Positions 5,977 through 11,129 of a stretch of 42,922 bases of DNA are shown here, piece by piece (position 1 is the first letter of the stretch; each line of letters begins with the position of its first letter). The stretch is from a virus (lineage: Duplodnaviria > Heunggongvirae > Uroviricota > Caudoviricetes). The stretch lies in IMG/VR virus record IMGVR_UViG_2728369185_000014, one strand, 5' to 3'. A program made the translations under genes and the position numbers. A model generated the notes under the pieces. It searched no databases. It was not told the DNA's origin and saw nothing but the letters and a program-made list of their open reading frames with translations.

Positions 5977-6119
5977 ATATCACCTTAAAGAGTGGATTGC
6001 GGTAGTAAAGATTGTGCCTGTCTTTTAACCACATCAGGCTCGGTGGTTCTCGTGTACCCCTACAACGAGAAATCGGATAAACTCTATTCACCCCTACAGA
6101 GAGCAAAAGAGAAACGCCG

Positions 6120-6701
6120 ATGAACAACTCATGGTGGCAGGAACTAATGCATTTTTTCCTGCAAGGAATGACACTTAAACAGTTGATTCATATGCTAATC
6201 ATCCTGATCATATTGATTATTGTTATGCCGGTAAGCGTAAAAGAATGGATAAACCTGCATAATCCAGAAATCCTTCCTCATTACTGGATGTATTACATCC
6301 TGTTGTTTTGCGTTAGCTATGTGCTTAACGGCGTTGTTAATTCCGCTTATCACGCTGTGACTGAAAGAATTGAGGTATTCGCTGCTCAGAAGCGCAAATC
6401 TAAAGAAGAAAAATATGTGCAAGATTTGTTTGATTCGTTAACTCTTGGAGAAAGAGCGTATTTGGCATTCGCTGTAGCCGCTAATAACCAGCTACAAACG
6501 GAAAAGGGCGCTCATGAATCAATTTCATTGCTCAAAAAAGGACTCCTCGTTCGAAGGCCTCCTGCTGTTGGATATCCTGATACCGACCGTTTCGTTATCC
6601 CTGAAAGCTATAGACATGAGTGCTACATTAGGTTTGCCGGGAAGGCAGACAGCCTTATGGATGAACTTATCGCTCAGGATAAGCATGGCAAAAACAAGTA
6701 A
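6120..6701 (+). CDS. sieB: SieB superinfection-exclusion protein
   Basis: 193 aa with an N-terminal membrane segment (MLIILIILIIVMPV), matching lambda SieB; plus-strand, opposite to the flanking early genes. Confidence 0.85.
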   Translation: MNNSWWQELMHFFLQGMTLKQLIHMLIILIILIIVMPVSVKEWINLHNPEILPHYWMYYILLFCVSYVLNGVVNSAYHAVTERIEVFAAQKRKSKEEKYVQDLFDSLTLGERAYLAFAVAANNQLQTEKGAHESISLLKKGLLVRRPPAVGYPDTDRFVIPESYRHECYIRFAGKADSLMDELIAQDKHGKNK

Positions 6702-6717
6702 TTAGCAAATGAATTTA

Positions 6718-6990
6718 TCATCTCGCCGTCAGTTGTTTTGATTTCCGGTAGCCTGCCGCGTAAAGAGCTACGTTCGGAAGACAAGTTGAACCTTCATATT
6801 TTCTGGTCAACGTTGTCAGAGTTATCACTTCTGCTCTCATTGCTGGTTTGAGCTTGCATTGCAAGACCACTCGTGAAGGGGTTGGCCTGTGTAGCTTGTC
6901 GGAGCTGATCGCCTCCTGACTTTGCAGATTTGCGCGACGAGCTCTACGGCGAGAAGCTGCGGTGCCTTTAAATTCTGTTTTTCTGGACAT
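6718..6990 (-). CDS. N: N-like transcription antiterminator (non-lambda specificity)
   Basis: 90-aa basic protein with an arginine-rich motif near the N-terminus (KGTAASRRRARRANL) like N-protein boxB-binding motifs; sits between sieB and the left operator as N does in lambda; start taken at the internal Met of the track ORF. Confidence 0.65.
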   Translation of the reverse strand: MSRKTEFKGTAASRRRARRANLQSQEAISSDKLHRPTPSRVVLQCKLKPAMRAEVITLTTLTRKYEGSTCLPNVALYAAGYRKSKQLTAR

Positions 6991-7106
6991 GGATTCCTCC
7001 CGAATAAACTTTGGCGATGCAATCTCGAAGCTCCTCCTGAGACGGTTGCTTCGGCATTGCATCCCACAGCTTATGTGGTTGGGTGATCTGGCTTTTCAGC
7101 CACGTA

Positions 7107-7133
7107 GTCGAGAGTCGACGTTGTTTAAAGAGC
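7107..7133 (-). promoter_or_regulatory. Putative nutL (boxA plus boxB hairpin)
   Basis: On the minus strand, GCTCTTTAAACAA (boxA-like) followed by the inverted repeat GTCGACTCTCGAC, just upstream of N; placed by hand. Confidence 0.4.
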
Positions 7134-7149
7134 CTGCCAGTCTGTTCCA

Positions 7150-7260
7150 TTTGGCTTCCAGCGTCCTGCTGACGGTTAAATAGTACGATATGTACTTTAC
7201 AAGATCAATACAATTTGTTGTAAGTTGGCGTGGTTTTTTATAACGCTTTGTATTTAATAG
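7150..7260 (-). promoter_or_regulatory. Putative pL/oL region
   Basis: A 15-mer AAAGTACATAT(C/T)GTA is shared with the cI-cro intergenic region (9498..9512), consistent with a common repressor operator; promoter hexamers not confidently assigned. Confidence 0.4.
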
Positions 7261-7426
7261 TGTTGTTTTTTAGCGTGGATGTATTGCCTCGGCGATGTAA
7301 GGAGAGATCAGAATTGCGTGGTTTAGTGGGTTGCATCTATTTATTTTTCAATAAATATAATTGGTTATGTGTTTTTAGGTGGGCGAACGTGAGGCAAAGA
7401 AAACCCGGCGCTGAGGCCGGGTTGTA

Positions 7427-8179
7427 TTATGCTGCAAGTCTCTTAACCCAAGTCTCTCTTTTGGAGAATGGTAGAACTTGGCTTGATTCATGGAAGAGTA
7501 AGGAGAGTTGTTGCATTTGATCACCAATTGCTTCGCTGTCTATAACAACAAATCTGTTGTTATACTCCTCACTTGAAGCTTTAAGATCAATTAGTTTCCC
7601 AAGCAATGAGTAAGCACTATTCCAGCTTCCTCCGTGTTTCACGCTTGATGTAAAAACGTATTTAGGTATGTCGGTTTTTATTGTTACAGGGACGGTAATT
7701 TGATGTCCACTCAAGCCATATACGTTTTCACGAAGAGAAAGTGCGTCTCTAAGCTCTGTGTGATATAGATAATCAATAACCATACTTTCAAACTTTTCAG
7801 CTTGAACTGGCTGATACCAGTCTAACGACAAAGTTGATGCGAGTATACCAGCTCTAATTATGTTCGATGTAATCGCACCGACATCCTTTTCTGTTGCCCA
7901 AGCAATGATTTCTCCTCGAGCATTGAGTTCTGCGCCTTCTTTAAGCAGTAATTGTCGTATCTCATCAAGTCGTTTTTTGGTAAGCGAGATCCCTCTTGCC
8001 TCCATATTCATTAAGGCATCGCATCTGTCACTAACTAAATACCTACCATTGACTTCACGGATAAAGGCACCGACATGCTCTCCATCATCACAGTAAGTGA
8101 ATGGACTGATAATTCTCAAGGTCTTGCCTATTGGATGGCATTCGAAACCTAGTTGTGAGATCACTGTTGAGCACATCAT
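7427..8179 (-). CDS. Uncharacterised protein, second gene of the cassette in the rexAB position (250 aa)
   Basis: ORF whose start overlaps the stop of the upstream 185-aa ORF by 4 nt (ATGA); AT-rich; no transmembrane segment or catalytic motif recognised; not RexA/RexB-like. Confidence 0.6.
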   Translation of the reverse strand: MMCSTVISQLGFECHPIGKTLRIISPFTYCDDGEHVGAFIREVNGRYLVSDRCDALMNMEARGISLTKKRLDEIRQLLLKEGAELNARGEIIAWATEKDVGAITSNIIRAGILASTLSLDWYQPVQAEKFESMVIDYLYHTELRDALSLRENVYGLSGHQITVPVTIKTDIPKYVFTSSVKHGGSWNSAYSLLGKLIDLKASSEEYNNRFVVIDSEAIGDQMQQLSLLFHESSQVLPFSKRETWVKRLAA

Positions 8180-8733
8180 ATTCCAAACCCCATTTGCCCC
8201 GACTCATCTTCAAGCGGTAAAGGTATTCTCCCAGAGTAAGTTATGTTCAGATGTTTACAGAAGTAATTCCAATACCCTACCAGGTCATCTGGGTTTATGT
8301 CATCTTCGATTGGAAACGCTATTCTATCACTATAGTATCCAGCTTCTTCATAGTATACATGGTAGTGAGCACCGTAAATGATATCTTGGTACTTCGGATG
8401 ATCGACCTTGTAACTATTCGTGTGTTTGTCAAAGTGATAGGTATCTACCGCGAAAACCCTCTTGTTATGATAGAAAGCAATAATATTTATTTTAGGGTAA
8501 GAAATCGGGTCATCAGGTTCTGAATCCTGATCTGGTTTCCATTTCAGTTCAAACTTTAGCCCTTGTATAGGTATACAATCCTCATCCAAGGGGATGATAT
8601 GGGCTTGTAGCCACATATCAGAGCGACTTGGTTTCTGTTTCCATTTAACGCCAGAAAAGTTAACTATTTTTTTACAATAAAGTACTTTATCAACTTCTAC
8701 TTGGCTTGGCTGATAATCATCTATTTTTGCCAA
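8176..8733 (-). CDS. Uncharacterised protein, first gene of the cassette in the rexAB position (185 aa)
   Basis: Begins 39 bp downstream of the cI stop on the same strand; apparent TTG start; Tyr/His/Asp-rich soluble protein; no homologue recognised. Confidence 0.55.
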   Translation of the reverse strand: MAKIDDYQPSQVEVDKVLYCKKIVNFSGVKWKQKPSRSDMWLQAHIIPLDEDCIPIQGLKFELKWKPDQDSEPDDPISYPKINIIAFYHNKRVFAVDTYHFDKHTNSYKVDHPKYQDIIYGAHYHVYYEEAGYYSDRIAFPIEDDINPDDLVGYWNYFCKHLNITYSGRIPLPLEDESGQMGFGI

Positions 8734-8772
8734 TGTTTACCGCCCTGTAAATTGTAGATAAAAGTGGTTTCA

Positions 8773-9426
8773 TCACCCAAACGTCTCTTCAGGCCATTGG
8801 CTGGCGATAACTTTCCCCACAACGGAACAACTCTCATTGCATGGGATCATTGGGTATTGTGGGTTTAGTGGCTGTAGAAACACCTGACCGCTATCCCTGA
8901 TCAGTTTCTTGAAGGTAAATTCATCACCACCAAGTCTGGCTATGCAGAAATCGCCGGGCTCAACAGCTTGCTCAGGGTCAACCAGAATTAACATCCCGTC
9001 AGGAAAGCTGGGTTTGGAACCTGTTGGTGCGGTCATTGAGTTACCTTCAACCTCAAGCCAGAATGCAGAGTCACTGGCTTTTTTGGTTGTGCTTACCAAT
9101 CTCTCCGCATCGCCTTTGGTAAAGGTTCTGAGTTCTGGAGAGAACATCCCAGCCTGAACATGAGAAAAAACAGGGTACTCATATTGTTTTTTAACTGGGG
9201 CCGATGAGTATTCGCCAACAGGTGAAAATGTCCCGTCGTGGTTGAATGATATGTTATCAATACCAAGGTATTTAAACACCACACCAATATCACTAAGAGA
9301 TGGATGACGAGATCCGCGCAACCAGTGTCCAATCCCACCCTGCGTCATACCTAGCTCTTCGGCTAACTTCTCTTGAGTTATGCCGAGCTCTTTCATTCTG
9401 GATCTAGCCAGTTCATACCATTTCAT
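8773..9426 (-). CDS. cI: CI-type prophage repressor (S24 LexA-like peptidase domain)
   Basis: C-terminal ~130 aa match the lambda cI autocleavage/dimerisation domain (...[30 protein letters not shown]...WPEETFG); N-terminal HTH domain differs from lambda; start taken at the Met 7 nt after an AAGGA (9432 is an alternative). Confidence 0.85.
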
Positions 9427-9543
9427 TTTCATGTCCTTATTATTACGCTCTGTACTGGAACCATCCATGCACAATGTGTATTTTTACTTGTATTCGCAAA
9501 GTACATATTGTATTTTTTTATTCGTGTTTACTATGGAGGGCAT
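9427..9543. promoter_or_regulatory. cI-cro divergent promoter/operator region (oR-like)
   Basis: Intergenic region between divergent cI and cro, with palindromic elements (TACTTGTATTCGCAAAGTA; AAAGTACATATTGTA) and a GGAGGG ribosome-binding site before cro. Confidence 0.55.
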
Positions 9544-9759
9544 ATGAGCAACCTACGAAAATATCGAGAGTCACTGAATATCTCTCAAACAACACTTGCT
9601 AAGGCAGTTGGATGCACACAGGGAGCTATCGGACATTGGGAATCTGGTCGTCGCTTCCCAGACCTTAAAACATGCCGTGCTCTTGTTGCGTGCCTAAACA
9701 AGTTAGGCGCAAAAGTCAGTCTTGATGACGTGTTCCCGCCGGAACACAAAGCCGCTTAA
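9544..9759 (+). CDS. cro: Cro-like HTH repressor
   Basis: 71-aa protein with an XRE-type helix-turn-helix (SQTTLAKAVGCTQGAIGHWESG), divergent from cI. Confidence 0.8.
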   Translation: MSNLRKYRESLNISQTTLAKAVGCTQGAIGHWESGRRFPDLKTCRALVACLNKLGAKVSLDDVFPPEHKAA

Positions 9760-9900
9760 TAAGCGGATCCGCTCTTTGTAACAACGGACATTCGTCCTAC
9801 GTCGCTGAAAAGCGAGTTCCAAGATATCTGACCAACTAAGGCCATATGCGTTTCCACGCATACCTTTCAACTAACTATTCACTATTGGAAATCTTAAGAA

Positions 9901-10197
9901 ATGGAAAGAACAAGTTACAGCAAACTATCACAGCGTGACGTTGATCGCGCAGAAACAGATTTACTTATCAATCTGTCAGCTATTACCCAGCGCGGTCTGG
10001 CAAAGATGATTGGCTGTCATGAATCGAAGATAAGCAGAACGGACTGGAGATTTATTGCTTCGGTCTTGTGTGCTTTCGGAATGGCATCAGACATCAGTCC
10101 GATTAGCAGGGCTTTTAAGTATGCGCTTGATGGACTCACCAATAAAAAACGCCCGGCGGCAACCGAGCGTTCTGAACAAATCCAGATGGAATTCTGA
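9901..10197 (+). CDS. cII: CII transcriptional activator (hybrid)
   Basis: 98 aa; the C-terminus (...LTNKKRPAATERSEQIQMEF) matches lambda CII, the N-terminal DNA-binding part differs. Confidence 0.8.
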   Translation: MERTSYSKLSQRDVDRAETDLLINLSAITQRGLAKMIGCHESKISRTDWRFIASVLCAFGMASDISPISRAFKYALDGLTNKKRPAATERSEQIQMEF

Positions 10198-10229
10198 GGT
10201 CATTACTGGATCAATCCACAGGAGTCATT

Positions 10230-11129
10230 ATGACAAATACAGCAAAAATACTCAACTTCTGCAGAGGTAACTTTGCCAAACAGGAGCGTAATGTGGCAGA
10301 TCTCGATGATGGTTACGCCAGACTATCAAATATGCTGCTTGAGGCTTATTCAGGCGCAGATCTGACCAAGCGACAGTTTAAAGTGCTGCTTGCCATTCTG
10401 CGTAAAACCTATGGATGGAATAAACCAATGGACAGAATCACCGATTCTCAACTTAGCGAGATTACAAAGTTACCCGTCAAACGGTGCAATGAAGCCAAGT
10501 TAGAACTCGTCAGAATGAATATTATCAAGCAGCAAGGCGGCATGTTTGGACCAAATAAAAACATCTCAGAATGGTGTATCCCTCAAAACGAGGGAAAATC
10601 CCCTAAAACGAGGGATAAAACATCCCTCAAATTGGGGGATTGCTATCCCTCAAAACAGGGGGACACAAAAGACACTATTACAAAAGAAAAAAGAAAAGAT
10701 TATTCGTCAGAGAATTCTGGCGAATCCTCTGACCAGCCAGAAAACGACCTTTCTGTGGTGAAACCGGATGCTGCAATTCAGAGCGGCAGCAAGTGGGGGA
10801 CAGCAGAAGACCTGACCGCCGCAGAATGGATGTTTGACATGGTGAAGACCATCGCGCCATCAGCCAGAAAACCGAATTTTGCAGGGTGGGCTAACGATAT
10901 CCGCCTGATGCGTGAACGTGACGGACGTAACCACCGCGACATGTGCGTGCTGTTCCGCTGGGCATGCCAGGACAACTTCTGGTCCGGTAACGTGCTAAGT
11001 CCGGCCAAACTCCGCGACAAGTGGACCCAACTCGAAATCAACCGTAACAAGCAACAGGCAGGCGTGACAGCTAGCAAACCAAAACTCGACCTGACAAACA
11101 CAGACTGGATTTACGGGGTGGATTTATGA
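10230..11129 (+). CDS. O: Replication initiator O
   Basis: 299 aa, near-identical to lambda O as I recall it; contains the ori iterons. Confidence 0.95.
   Translation: MTNTAKILNFCRGNFAKQERNVADLDDGYARLSNMLLEAYSGADLTKRQFKVLLAILRKTYGWNKPMDRITDSQLSEITKLPVKRCNEAKLELVRMNIIKQQGGMFGPNKNISEWCIPQNEGKSPKTRDKTSLKLGDCYPSKQGDTKDTITKEKRKDYSSENSGESSDQPENDLSVVKPDAAIQSGSKWGTAEDLTAAEWMFDMVKTIAPSARKPNFAGWANDIRLMRERDGRNHRDMCVLFRWACQDNFWSGNVLSPAKLRDKWTQLEINRNKQQAGVTASKPKLDLTNTDWIYGVDL
10576..10705 (+). repeat. Lambda-type origin: four ~19-bp iterons plus an AT-rich region inside O
   Basis: Tandem ATCCCTCAAAACGAGGG-like repeats (four copies) followed by an A/T-rich stretch; placed by hand. Confidence 0.8.

What the first reader, a model, noticed from the sequence alone, without database searches (positions are those of the whole stretch)
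7427..8733. Uncharacterised two-gene cassette in the rexAB position of the immunity region
Seen in the sequence: two overlapping ORFs (185 aa then 250 aa, joined by ATGA) start 39 bp after the cI stop on the same strand and end before N/pL. They are clearly more AT-rich than the flanking cI and N genes. Neither has transmembrane segments or motifs I can assign, and the first appears to start with TTG. Established knowledge: in lambda this slot holds rexA-rexB, an abortive-infection/exclusion system co-transcribed with cI in the lysogen, and the slot is a known hotspot for exclusion genes in lambdoid phages. Inference: a lysogen-expressed exclusion or defence module, mechanistically unlike Rex because no membrane component is evident.
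Basis: partly seen in the sequence, partly recalled or inferred. Interest (0 to 1): 0.8.

Follow-up and report, generated by a model that had tools for sequence, protein, structure and literature searches.

The report
Untested prophage defence gene pair
Where phage lambda carries its rexAB exclusion genes, this lambda-like prophage carries a different, strictly conserved pair of soluble proteins that two published computational screens call anti-phage defence genes; nobody has tested them, although they sit in well-known E. coli strains such as Nissle 1917.

Summary
On the minus strand, cI (8773-9474) is followed after 39 nt by gene A (8176-8733, 185 aa, TTG start). Gene B (7427-8179, 250 aa) overlaps it by ATGA. 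The lambda t_imm terminator hairpin follows (7423-7402). Both genes are AT-rich and have no membrane segment.

The pair is real and conserved. In all 96 related loci that contain B, A lies immediately upstream with overlapping stop and start. The pair almost always sits just 3' of a prophage repressor, and those repressors fall into at least 20 sequence clusters.

B has a DUF1828 domain with a YbjN/T3SS-chaperone-like fold and a DUF1829 domain with a PD-(D/E)xK fold. The canonical catalytic residues are absent. A has a confidently predicted fold with no solved relative and an invariant K/R/D/H/N/H/H set.

Two features are new here. A starts with GTG or TTG in 44 of 45 distinct genes. B ends in ssrA-like LAA or LVA in 44 of 45.

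B matches the untested PADLOC candidate PDC-M24B. DefensePredictor lists exactly these two proteins as predicted defence genes but did not test them.

Verdict: a probable lysogen-expressed defence module, unrelated to Rex, with an unresolved mechanism. It is a good experimental target but not categorically new.

The parts
8773..9474 (-). cI-type repressor gene (HTH_3 + Peptidase_S24), the first gene of the presumed operon. Deposited annotations of identical phages start it at 9468, giving 231 aa.
   Evidence: Pfam PF00717 1.3e-28 and PF01381 2.1e-10; annotated cI / LexA family in PhiR57_1 and Nissle 1917.
8734..8772 (-). 39-nt spacer between the cI stop and the TTG of gene A, with a weak Shine-Dalgarno-like GGGCGG.
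   Evidence: Sequence read directly. The promoter-like matches in the region do not exceed the number in shuffled sequence (5 found, 6.9 expected).
8176..8733 (-). Gene A, 185 aa (identical to WP_001062368.1). TTG start. Soluble and acidic (pI 5.3). Predicted fold without a solved relative. Family-wide invariants are K22, W31, R92, D97, N106, H123, H125, F158 and P173, with H104, G121, W155 and Q180 nearly invariant. It has a conserved, low-confidence C-terminal tail (..SGQMGFGI).
   Evidence: Sub-threshold matches to Pfam DUF6978 (22 bits against a cutoff of 29.6) and PADLOC PDC-M24A (E 4.8e-4). phrog_2017, function unknown.
8176..8179 (-). ATGA overlap of the A stop and the B start (translational coupling). 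An overlap is kept in all 96 related loci.
7427..8179 (-). Gene B, 250 aa (identical to WP_000968518.1). The N-terminal domain (about residues 1-121) is DUF1828 with a YbjN/T3SS-chaperone-like fold. The C-terminal domain (about residues 127-250) is DUF1829 with a PD-(D/E)xK fold but without the canonical D...(D/E)xK residues. The C-terminus is ..RLAA.
7402..7423 (-). Intrinsic terminator hairpin (8-bp G+C-rich stem, then UUUUCUUU). It is homologous to lambda t_imm and forms the end of the cI-A-B unit.
   Evidence: Terminator scan; RNA fold -18.9 kcal/mol, z -3.2; alignment to lambda just 3' of rexB.

Best explanation
The cassette is a moron (an accessory gene module carried by the prophage) that is transcribed with the repressor gene in the lysogen: cI-A-B-t_imm, the same arrangement as cI-rexA-rexB in lambda. 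Its most likely job is to protect the lysogen against other phages.

The two proteins are made together and in small amounts, because A has a weak non-ATG start and B is translationally coupled to it. I infer that they act as a complex.

The mechanism I think most likely has three parts:
- B is the executing component. A highly conserved chaperone-like DUF1828 domain controls a PD-(D/E)xK-fold DUF1829 domain that attacks nucleic acid with non-canonical chemistry. The invariant residues are S157, H159, T177, D198 and R209.
- A is the faster-evolving, lineage-specific partner. It senses infection or sets specificity, possibly through its own conserved K/R/D/H/N/H/H site and its conserved C-terminal tail.
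- Superinfection changes the A-B complex, and the released activity stops phage development, by exclusion or by abortive infection.

Shown: the anatomy, the conservation of the pair, its position next to repressors, the folds and the invariant residues.

Inferred: co-transcription, complex formation, the defence function, and which protein is the effector.

My confidence by layer: lysogen-expressed conserved two-protein module about 0.85; anti-phage function about 0.65; B as effector with A as sensor or regulator about 0.35.
For: Operon anatomy:
- 39-nt gap after cI, ATGA overlap, t_imm hairpin, no promoter signal above chance.

Pair conservation:
- 96 of 96 loci with B have A immediately upstream with stop/start overlap.
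- An unannotated A-like ORF precedes the B-like gene in Pseudomonas phage phPA-G.

Position:
- The gene upstream is a repressor falling into at least 20 clusters at 60% identity. 73 are S24-type and 12 are HTH-only. In 8 loci a DUF3024 gene lies directly upstream of A; in the one locus read through (L012) an S24 cI precedes it.
- The identical cassette occurs beside two different repressors (L042 and L043 against the rest).

Moron signature:
- Lower G+C than its surroundings, and other cargo in the same slot in sister phages.

Defence predictions:
- All 33 B homologues match PDC-M24B. PDC candidates were found embedded in BREX, DISARM and type I RM systems.
- DefensePredictor log-odds are 5.6-6.3 for B and 4.9-5.4 for A, against a cutoff of 4, and both genes are assigned to one transcription unit.

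B as effector:
- B is more conserved than A in every lineage, as effectors usually are relative to sensors (general knowledge).

Retention:
- The cassette is kept intact in the decayed Nissle 1917 prophage.
- It is present in 240 of 5426 complete E. coli genomes at 99% identity or more.
Against: - There is no experimental phenotype anywhere that I could find. The pair is absent from the complete DefensePredictor tables of tested units (S6-S8).
- Brenes and Laub 2025, the most relevant paper, could not be read.
- B lacks the canonical PD-(D/E)xK catalytic residues. The D position holds H159, the K position in strand 3 holds T177, and K173 and K181 are not conserved. It may not be a nuclease at all.
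- The only validated DUF1829 protein is DS-6B of HipAD (a weak domain call, HHpred probability 0.78). It is an antitoxin-like partner, not an effector.
- The most conserved part of the system is B's N-terminal domain, which fits poorly with a domain that senses variable phage proteins.
- A's invariant polar residues look more like an active site than a sensor surface.
- The match of A to PDC-M24A is weak: 3 of 21 members, partial coverage.
- Co-transcription with cI was not measured.
Confidence: 0.6

Rival explanations
1. A toxin-antitoxin-like abortive-infection pair with the roles reversed. A is the effector or toxin, an enzyme with a new fold and a K22/R92/D97/H104/N106/H123/H125 active site, kept scarce by its GTG or TTG start. 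B is its neutraliser, made by coupled translation. B holds A through the chaperone-like DUF1828 domain, perhaps via A's conserved C-terminal tail. B is kept unstable by an ssrA-like C-terminal LAA or LVA that ClpXP would recognise. Phage shut-off of host gene expression, or a phage protein that displaces A from B, frees A.
For: - A starts with GTG in 38, TTG in 6 and ATG in 1 of 45 distinct genes. B ends in LAA in 33, LVA in 11 and something else in 1. LAA and LVA are the strong ssrA-tag degron variants (established knowledge).
- B lacks the canonical nuclease residues.
- A has enzyme-like invariant residues across relatives only 21-26% identical.
- A's last residues are conserved but predicted with low confidence, as expected for a partner-binding tail.
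- The validated HipAD/DS-6 system has the same logic and gene order, with a DUF1829 protein as the antitoxin-like second gene.
- In one locus A is frameshifted while B is intact (L044).
Against: - A evolves faster than B in every lineage. This is the opposite of the usual TA pattern, in which the toxin is conserved and the antitoxin varies.
- A resembles no known toxin.
- The LAA end lies in a confidently predicted terminal helix, so it may be structural rather than a degron.
- The conserved tail of A overlaps B's ribosome-binding region, so part of its conservation may be at the nucleotide level.
- A labile antitoxin in the cI operon would endanger the prophage's own induction.
Confidence: 0.25
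2. The pair is not a defence system. It is an accessory of the prophage's own life cycle, for example modulating the lysis-lysogeny switch or induction as lambda RexA does, or it is a lysogenic-conversion function that benefits the host in some way unrelated to phages.
For: - Constant placement in the repressor operon.
- Lambda RexA has a documented role in the lysogenic-to-lytic transition (cited in PMC11077077, and PMC12315714).
- Enrichment in extraintestinal and commensal B2-type strains is compatible with a host-fitness role.
- No defence phenotype has been shown.
Against: - The pair is found with both SOS-cleavable S24 repressors and short HTH-only repressors, and with many immunity specificities. 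It is therefore not matched to any one switch.
- No DNA-binding motif was detected in either protein.
- B matches the PDC-M24B models, whose candidate set was found embedded in BREX, DISARM and RM systems outside prophages.
- DefensePredictor scores both genes as defensive.
- It is retained in a prophage that has lost its integrase, and the published study reported no induction of any Nissle prophage by antibiotic or heat.
Confidence: 0.12
3. A signalling system. A is an enzyme that makes or modifies a small molecule or nucleotide on infection. B's highly conserved DUF1828 domain is the receptor, and it switches on the DUF1829 domain. This would be analogous in logic to CARF-nuclease effectors such as Can2 and Card1.
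For: - B's N-terminal domain is the most conserved part of the system and has invariant D32, D51, D54, R70 and E90, as expected for binding an invariant ligand.
- A has an active-site-like invariant set in a new fold.
Against: - DUF1828 has a chaperone-like fold, not a CARF or SAVED fold.
- A resembles no cyclase or nucleotidyltransferase.
- Overlapping genes and a conserved A tail suggest a stoichiometric complex rather than a diffusible signal.
Confidence: 0.08

Closest known systems
Lambda RexA/RexB exclusion system
   Same: Identical genomic slot and arrangement: two genes directly 3' of cI on the same strand, ending at the t_imm terminator, with homology to lambda resuming 3 nt after the last stop codon. 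It is presumably expressed from the repressor promoters in the lysogen.
PADLOC phage-defence candidate PDC-M24 (Payne et al., bioRxiv 10.1101/2024.01.29.577857)
   Same: A two-gene candidate. All 33 B homologues match PDC-M24B models over the full length (best E 7.8e-12). A gives weak partial matches to PDC-M24A. The genes are adjacent on the same strand.
   Different: PDC candidates were defined by being embedded in BREX, DISARM or type I RM systems and are untested. This branch sits in prophage immunity regions. A is so diverged that only 3 of 21 relatives reach E 1e-3.
DefensePredictor 'predicted novel defense gene' entries WP_000968518.1 and WP_001062368.1 (DeWeirdt, Mahoney and Laub, Science 2026, PMC13092281)
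   Same: These are the very same proteins, with accessions confirmed in Nissle 1917. Both exceed log-odds 4 and are assigned to one transcription unit. HHpred annotates DUF1828 and DUF1829.
   Different: This is a prediction only. The pair does not appear in the tables of the 94 tested and 42 validated units, and it has no name or mechanism.
HipAD / DS-6 (HipA-like kinase plus a DUF3037-DUF1829 protein)
   Same: A two-gene, prophage-associated defence system in which the second gene encodes a DUF1829-containing protein (a weak HHpred call, probability 0.78) proposed to bind and restrain the first gene's product.
   Different: The first gene there is a HipA kinase, and A has no kinase similarity. 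The partner carries DUF3037, not DUF1828.
PD-(D/E)xK nuclease effectors of defence systems (type II restriction enzymes NgoMIV, PspGI and BstEII; CARF nucleases Can2 and Card1)
   Different: The canonical D...(D/E)xK residues are not conserved. The invariants are S157, G158, H159, T177, D198 and R209. Nuclease activity is unproven.
Chaperone-based phage sensing in toxin-antitoxin-chaperone systems (e.g. CmdTAC; bioRxiv 10.1101/2024.02.24.581848 listed) - an analogy only
   Same: A chaperone-like module in a small defence operon could hold a partner protein and be titrated by phage proteins. B's N-terminal domain has a T3SS-chaperone/YbjN-like fold.
   Different: Those systems use SecB-like chaperones as a separate third protein. 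Here the domain is fused to a nuclease-fold domain and is the most conserved part of the system. I did not read that paper; the comparison rests on my own knowledge.

Membership tests
Lambda Rex (RexA/RexB) | Two genes between cI and t_imm, same strand as cI | tested here: met
Lambda Rex (RexA/RexB) | Sequence or fold homology to RexA | tested here: not met
Lambda Rex (RexA/RexB) | RexB-type polytopic membrane protein | tested here: not met
   Highest 19-residue hydropathy 0.45 (A) and 1.19 (B); BLASTP of B against RexB E 0.34.
PADLOC PDC-M24 candidate system | Protein matching a PDC-M24B model over its full length | tested here: met
   E 4.7e-10, residues 2-249 on model positions 4-254 of 256; 33 of 33 homologues match.
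PADLOC PDC-M24 candidate system | Adjacent protein matching a PDC-M24A model | tested here: inconclusive
   E 4.8e-4 covering only residues 104-163; 3 of 21 family members reach E 1e-3.
PADLOC PDC-M24 candidate system | Demonstrated anti-phage activity | not testable with these tools
   The authors describe the 145 PDC systems as untested.
PD-(D/E)xK nucleases (Pfam clan CL0236, DUF1829) | Alpha-beta-beta-beta-alpha-beta core fold | tested here: met
PD-(D/E)xK nucleases (Pfam clan CL0236, DUF1829) | Conserved catalytic D ... (D/E)xK residues | tested here: not met
   Alignments of 33 homologues plus the Pseudomonas relative: H159 sits where the strand-2 Asp is expected, T177 is the invariant residue in strand 3, and K173 and K181 vary. 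Positions were assigned from secondary structure, not from coordinates.
YbjN / type III secretion chaperone-like fold (DUF1828) | Pfam DUF1828 match above the gathering score, and the fold | tested here: met
Pfam DUF6978 (for protein A) | Match above the gathering score | tested here: not met
   22 bits against a cutoff of 29.6, C-terminal half only. Distant relatives score 15-23 bits.
Type II toxin-antitoxin modules | Two small adjacent, translationally coupled genes | tested here: met
   ATGA overlap, kept in 96 of 96 loci.
Type II toxin-antitoxin modules | Proteolytically labile antitoxin | tested here: inconclusive
   B ends in LAA or LVA in 44 of 45 distinct genes, which resembles the ssrA degron. 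Stability was not measured, and the end lies in a confident helix.
Type II toxin-antitoxin modules | One product toxic and neutralised by the other; antitoxin binds the operator DNA | not testable with these tools
   No HTH, RHH or AbrB domain was detected in either protein. Toxicity needs an experiment.

The most novel reading that the evidence does not exclude
A is the founding member of a previously unseen enzyme fold that acts as the killing or blocking activity of a new kind of abortive-infection module. It is held by a chaperone-like, degenerate-nuclease partner (B) whose ssrA-like tail makes the complex a timer for host shut-off. This module, rather than the published 'pr' gene (which maps to cII), would then account for the unexplained complete resistance of E. 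coli Nissle 1917 to lambdoid phages.
Probability: 0.2. Interest if true: 0.75.

Novelty: new variant of a known kind. Interest (0 to 1): 0.55.

Why it matters
- If the pair is a working defence system, it adds an uncharacterised mechanism. One protein has no solved structural relative, and the other joins a chaperone-like domain to a PD-(D/E)xK fold lacking the usual catalytic residues.
- Lambdoid genetics makes the system easy to dissect.
- It is carried by about 4% of complete E. coli genomes. These include the probiotic Nissle 1917, the asymptomatic-bacteriuria strain ABU 83972, the type strain ATCC 11775, the strain labelled 'FDA strain Seattle 1946' (to my knowledge ATCC 25922) and many ExPEC and APEC isolates. 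It could therefore affect phage-therapy host range and the engineering of these strains.
- The published study of Nissle's resistance to lambda and Stx phages left an 'unidentified factor' in this very prophage.
- The conserved non-ATG start of A and the LAA/LVA end of B are simple, testable regulatory hypotheses.
- The finding also gives direct evidence that the cI-to-t_imm slot is a cargo hotspot holding several other unknown genes.

Tried and rejected
**Rex homology.** Rejected.

**A hidden membrane component.** None is present.

**Known defence systems.** PADLOC gave only PDC-M24. NCBIfam gave nothing. PHROGs gave families of unknown function only.

**Solved relatives by sequence.** None for A, and only chance-level hits for B.

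**Fold of A.**
- BFVD gave one uncharacterised Siphoviridae protein (E 8.8e-6, TM 0.5).
- The AFDB50 library was not available.

**Internal or own promoter.** Consensus matches do not exceed shuffled expectation, and the best one would start inside gene A.

**Known RNAs in 6000-10500.** None.

**Reaching distant A relatives in metagenomes or IMG/VR.** The alignments were too divergent to make search patterns. A single-protein scan found nothing.

**Literature.**
- No paper mentions PDC-M24. The only papers mentioning DUF1828 or DUF6978 do so in unrelated gene lists; three of the four were opened or identifiable as S. aureus studies.
- Brenes and Laub 2025 (Cell Host Microbe) is not held and could not be checked.
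- The GenBank records of PhiR57_1 and PhiR63_2 call both genes hypothetical.

**dN/dS.** Synonymous sites are saturated, so only the qualitative conclusion of strong purifying selection is drawn.
Full report
**1. Observation**

All features lie on the minus strand.

- The repressor gene occupies 8773-9474 (HTH_3 plus Peptidase_S24).
- After a 39-nt spacer comes gene A (8176-8733, 185 aa, TTG start).
- Gene B (7427-8179, 250 aa) starts inside the stop codon of A, in the sequence ATGA.
- N (6718-7062) and a plus-strand sieB (6120-6701) lie beyond.
- G+C is 38.2% for A and 40.6% for B, against 46.3% for cI and 49.9% for N.
- Neither product has a hydrophobic stretch long enough to span a membrane.
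- The TTG start is genuine. Homologues are conserved from the first residue (MAK.DDY...), and the next in-frame ATG is codon 40.

**2. The transcription unit**

- Three nucleotides after the stop of B lies an 8-bp G+C-rich hairpin followed by UUUUCUUU (7423-7402).
- An alignment with lambda shows that homology resumes exactly there. The hairpin is lambda's t_imm, immediately 3' of rexB.
- No promoter-like signal above chance lies between cI and A.

By synteny with lambda, the unit is cI-A-B-t_imm, read from the repressor promoters in the lysogen. This is an inference, because no expression data were available.

The slot is truly variable. Lambda has rexAB there, while phages 2G7b, E212 and mEp332 each carry a different unknown gene between cI and the same terminator.

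**3. The pair as a conserved unit**

- Both proteins have homologues in Salmonella, Klebsiella, Yersinia, Providencia, Xenorhabdus, Pantoea, Thorsellia and Aeromonas.
- I collected 97 loci from genomes, IMG/VR and assemblies. Every one of the 96 that contain a complete B has an A homologue immediately upstream with overlapping stop and start.
- In a Pseudomonas D3-like phage, a B homologue 29.5% identical is preceded by an unannotated A-like ORF with the same 4-nt overlap.
- The gene upstream of A is a prophage repressor in nearly all loci, and the repressors fall into at least 20 clusters at 60% identity.
  - 73 are S24-type and 12 are short HTH-only.
  - In 8 loci a DUF3024 gene lies directly upstream of A. 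In the one locus I read through (L012), an S24 cI precedes that gene.
- The 100%-identical E. coli cassette is found next to two unrelated repressors.
- Synonymous sites are saturated between lineages while dN stays at 0.11-0.47.
- A diverges faster than B in every lineage. Within B, the N-terminal domain is the most conserved part.

**4. What the proteins are**

*Protein B*

- It matches Pfam DUF1828 above the curated cutoff.
- Its AlphaFold2 model (pLDDT 84.7) has two domains.
- Published HHpred results for this exact protein give DUF1829, of clan PDDEXK, at 98.8%.
- The canonical catalytic residues are missing. Across 33 homologues plus the Pseudomonas relative, the invariant polar residues of this domain are S157, H159, T177, D198 and R209. 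H159 sits where the strand-2 Asp is expected. No conserved (D/E)xK exists.
- The N-terminal domain carries an invariant acidic set: D32, D51, D54 and E90, plus R70.

*Protein A*

- It belongs to a very small family. A profile search of 1.84 billion representative proteins returned only 20 proteins at E up to 0.001.
- Its matches to DUF6978 and PDC-M24A are sub-threshold.
- Across relatives only 21-26% identical, K22, W31, R92, D97, N106, H123, H125, F158 and P173 are invariant. H104, G121, W155 and Q180 are nearly so.
- The C-terminal ..SGQ..(L/F).. tail is conserved although it is modelled with low confidence.

**5. Two further conserved features found here**

- At the conserved MAK N-terminus, the start codon of A is GTG in 38, TTG in 6 and ATG in only 1 of 45 distinct genes. 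The Pseudomonas gene uses ATG.
- B ends in LAA in 33, LVA in 11 and something else in 1 of the same 45. The Pseudomonas B ends in ALAA. LAA and LVA are the classic strong ssrA-type ClpXP degron endings. That is established knowledge, and whether B is degraded is untested.

Together with the overlap, these features indicate tightly limited, stoichiometrically coupled expression.

**6. What is already known**

- PADLOC's PDC-M24 is a two-gene 'phage defence candidate'. The PDC set was derived by guilt-by-embedding in BREX, DISARM and type I RM systems, and its authors describe it as untested.
- All 33 B homologues match PDC-M24B. A matches PDC-M24A only weakly.
- DefensePredictor (PMC13092281) lists exactly these proteins as 'Predicted novel defense gene' in one transcription unit. 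They are WP_000968518.1 (B) and WP_001062368.1 (A), identified through the Nissle 1917 annotation. The log-odds are 5.6-6.3 and 4.9-5.4, against a stringent cutoff of 4.
- They do not appear in the complete tables of tested and validated units.
- The only validated DUF1829 protein is DS-6B of HipAD (a weak domain call, HHpred probability 0.78). It is proposed to be the antitoxin-like partner of a HipA kinase.
- No paper mentions PDC-M24. The only papers that mention DUF1828 or DUF6978 do so in unrelated gene lists.
- All source names for both proteins are 'hypothetical' or 'DUF1828 domain-containing'.
- The most relevant experimental paper, Brenes and Laub 2025, could not be read.

**7. Mechanism**

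The best-supported statement is that this is a lysogen-expressed, two-protein module acquired as a moron, most likely for defence against other phages.

For the mechanism I favour B as the executing protein, with a regulatory DUF1828 domain and a non-canonical PD-(D/E)xK-fold domain. A would be the faster-evolving sensing or specificity partner.

- For this model: effectors are usually the conserved, widely shared component, and the nuclease fold is the commonest defence effector.
- Against it, and in favour of the reversed TA-like model: B lacks the catalytic residues, A has enzyme-like invariant residues and a weak start codon, B has a degron-like end, and HipAD provides a precedent.
- Against the reversed model: A evolves faster than B, which is atypical for a toxin.

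A signalling model and a non-defence model are less likely but not excluded. None of these can be settled without the experiments listed.

**8. Distribution and relevance**

- The cassette is present in 240 of 5426 complete E. coli genomes. It is single-copy, chromosomal, at least 99% identical, and full-length in 238 of them.
- Carriers include Nissle 1917, ABU 83972, ATCC 11775, 'FDA strain Seattle 1946' and APEC O18.
- In Nissle the prophage has a truncated integrase and an IS element in place of the left arm, yet sieB-N-B-A-cI is intact.
- The published study of Nissle's resistance to lambdoid phages attributed partial protection to a 'phage repressor (pr)' and left an unidentified factor in the same prophage.
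- The cloning primers of that study map to window 9855-10222, which is the cII gene.

**9. Verdict**

The position, the module behaviour, the lack of any relation to Rex and two independent computational predictions all point to defence, but there is no functional evidence.
- The cassette is a new variant of a known kind, a prophage immunity-region defence cargo. It is already flagged computationally, and its mechanism is unresolved and possibly new.

Noticed in passing
window 9855-10222 (cII ORF 9901-10197, + strand): The primers used by Bury et al. 2018 (PMC5987069) to clone the Nissle 1917 'phage repressor (pr)' gene match the window exactly at 9855-9873 and 10204-10222. The amplicon is the cII homologue, not cI. 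The reported roughly 200-fold drop in lambda and Stx phage plating may therefore reflect cII overexpression from pUC19.
   Followed up: partly
window 6120-6701 (+): A SieB superinfection-exclusion gene (Pfam SieB 2.5e-22; phrog_1301) lies next to N on the opposite strand. The prophage therefore carries at least one further exclusion function within 1 kb of the cassette.
   Followed up: no
L098 (E. coli Nissle 1917, NZ_CP022686.1 4786023-4793523): The Nissle prophage next to icd has a truncated integrase followed by a frameshifted ISEc52. The int-to-ral left arm is missing, but sieB-N-B-A-cI-cro-cII-O-P is intact. The immunity-region cargo has outlived the phage.
   Followed up: partly
L101 3653-4504, L103 3094-3951, L102 3146-4183: In phages 2G7b, E212 and mEp332, the slot between cI and the t_imm-like terminator holds single unknown genes of 283, 285 and 345 aa (the last annotated 'T2SS GspM containing protein'). 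These are further uncharacterised cargo of the same hotspot.
   Followed up: no
L012 4053-4394 and 5819-6064 (Providencia alcalifaciens prophage): A DUF3024 gene (113 aa, E 1e-26) is inserted between cI and A. An 81-aa lipoprotein-like ORF follows B. The slot can accumulate several morons while A-B stays intact.
   Followed up: partly
L099 3420-4004 (Pseudomonas phage VB_PaD_phPA-G, PP083311.1): An A-like ORF is not annotated in the GenBank record. It has the D, HxN and HxH motifs, ends ..FGQMGFDV, and overlaps the B-like gene by 4 nt. A 216-aa gene with weak SHOCT-like and BRCT-like matches lies between the CI repressor and this ORF.
   Followed up: partly
L017 (NZ_JBHSON010000334.1, 518 bp, labelled Actinomadura rugatobispora): This 518-bp contig encodes the end of A and the start of B at 82% amino-acid identity to the E. 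coli proteins. It is almost certainly enterobacterial contamination of an actinomycete assembly.
   Followed up: no
L044 4448-5004 (IMG/VR UViG 2526164629_000012): Gene A is split by a frameshift while B is intact and 100% identical. This is the only disrupted copy seen among 96 loci.
   Followed up: no
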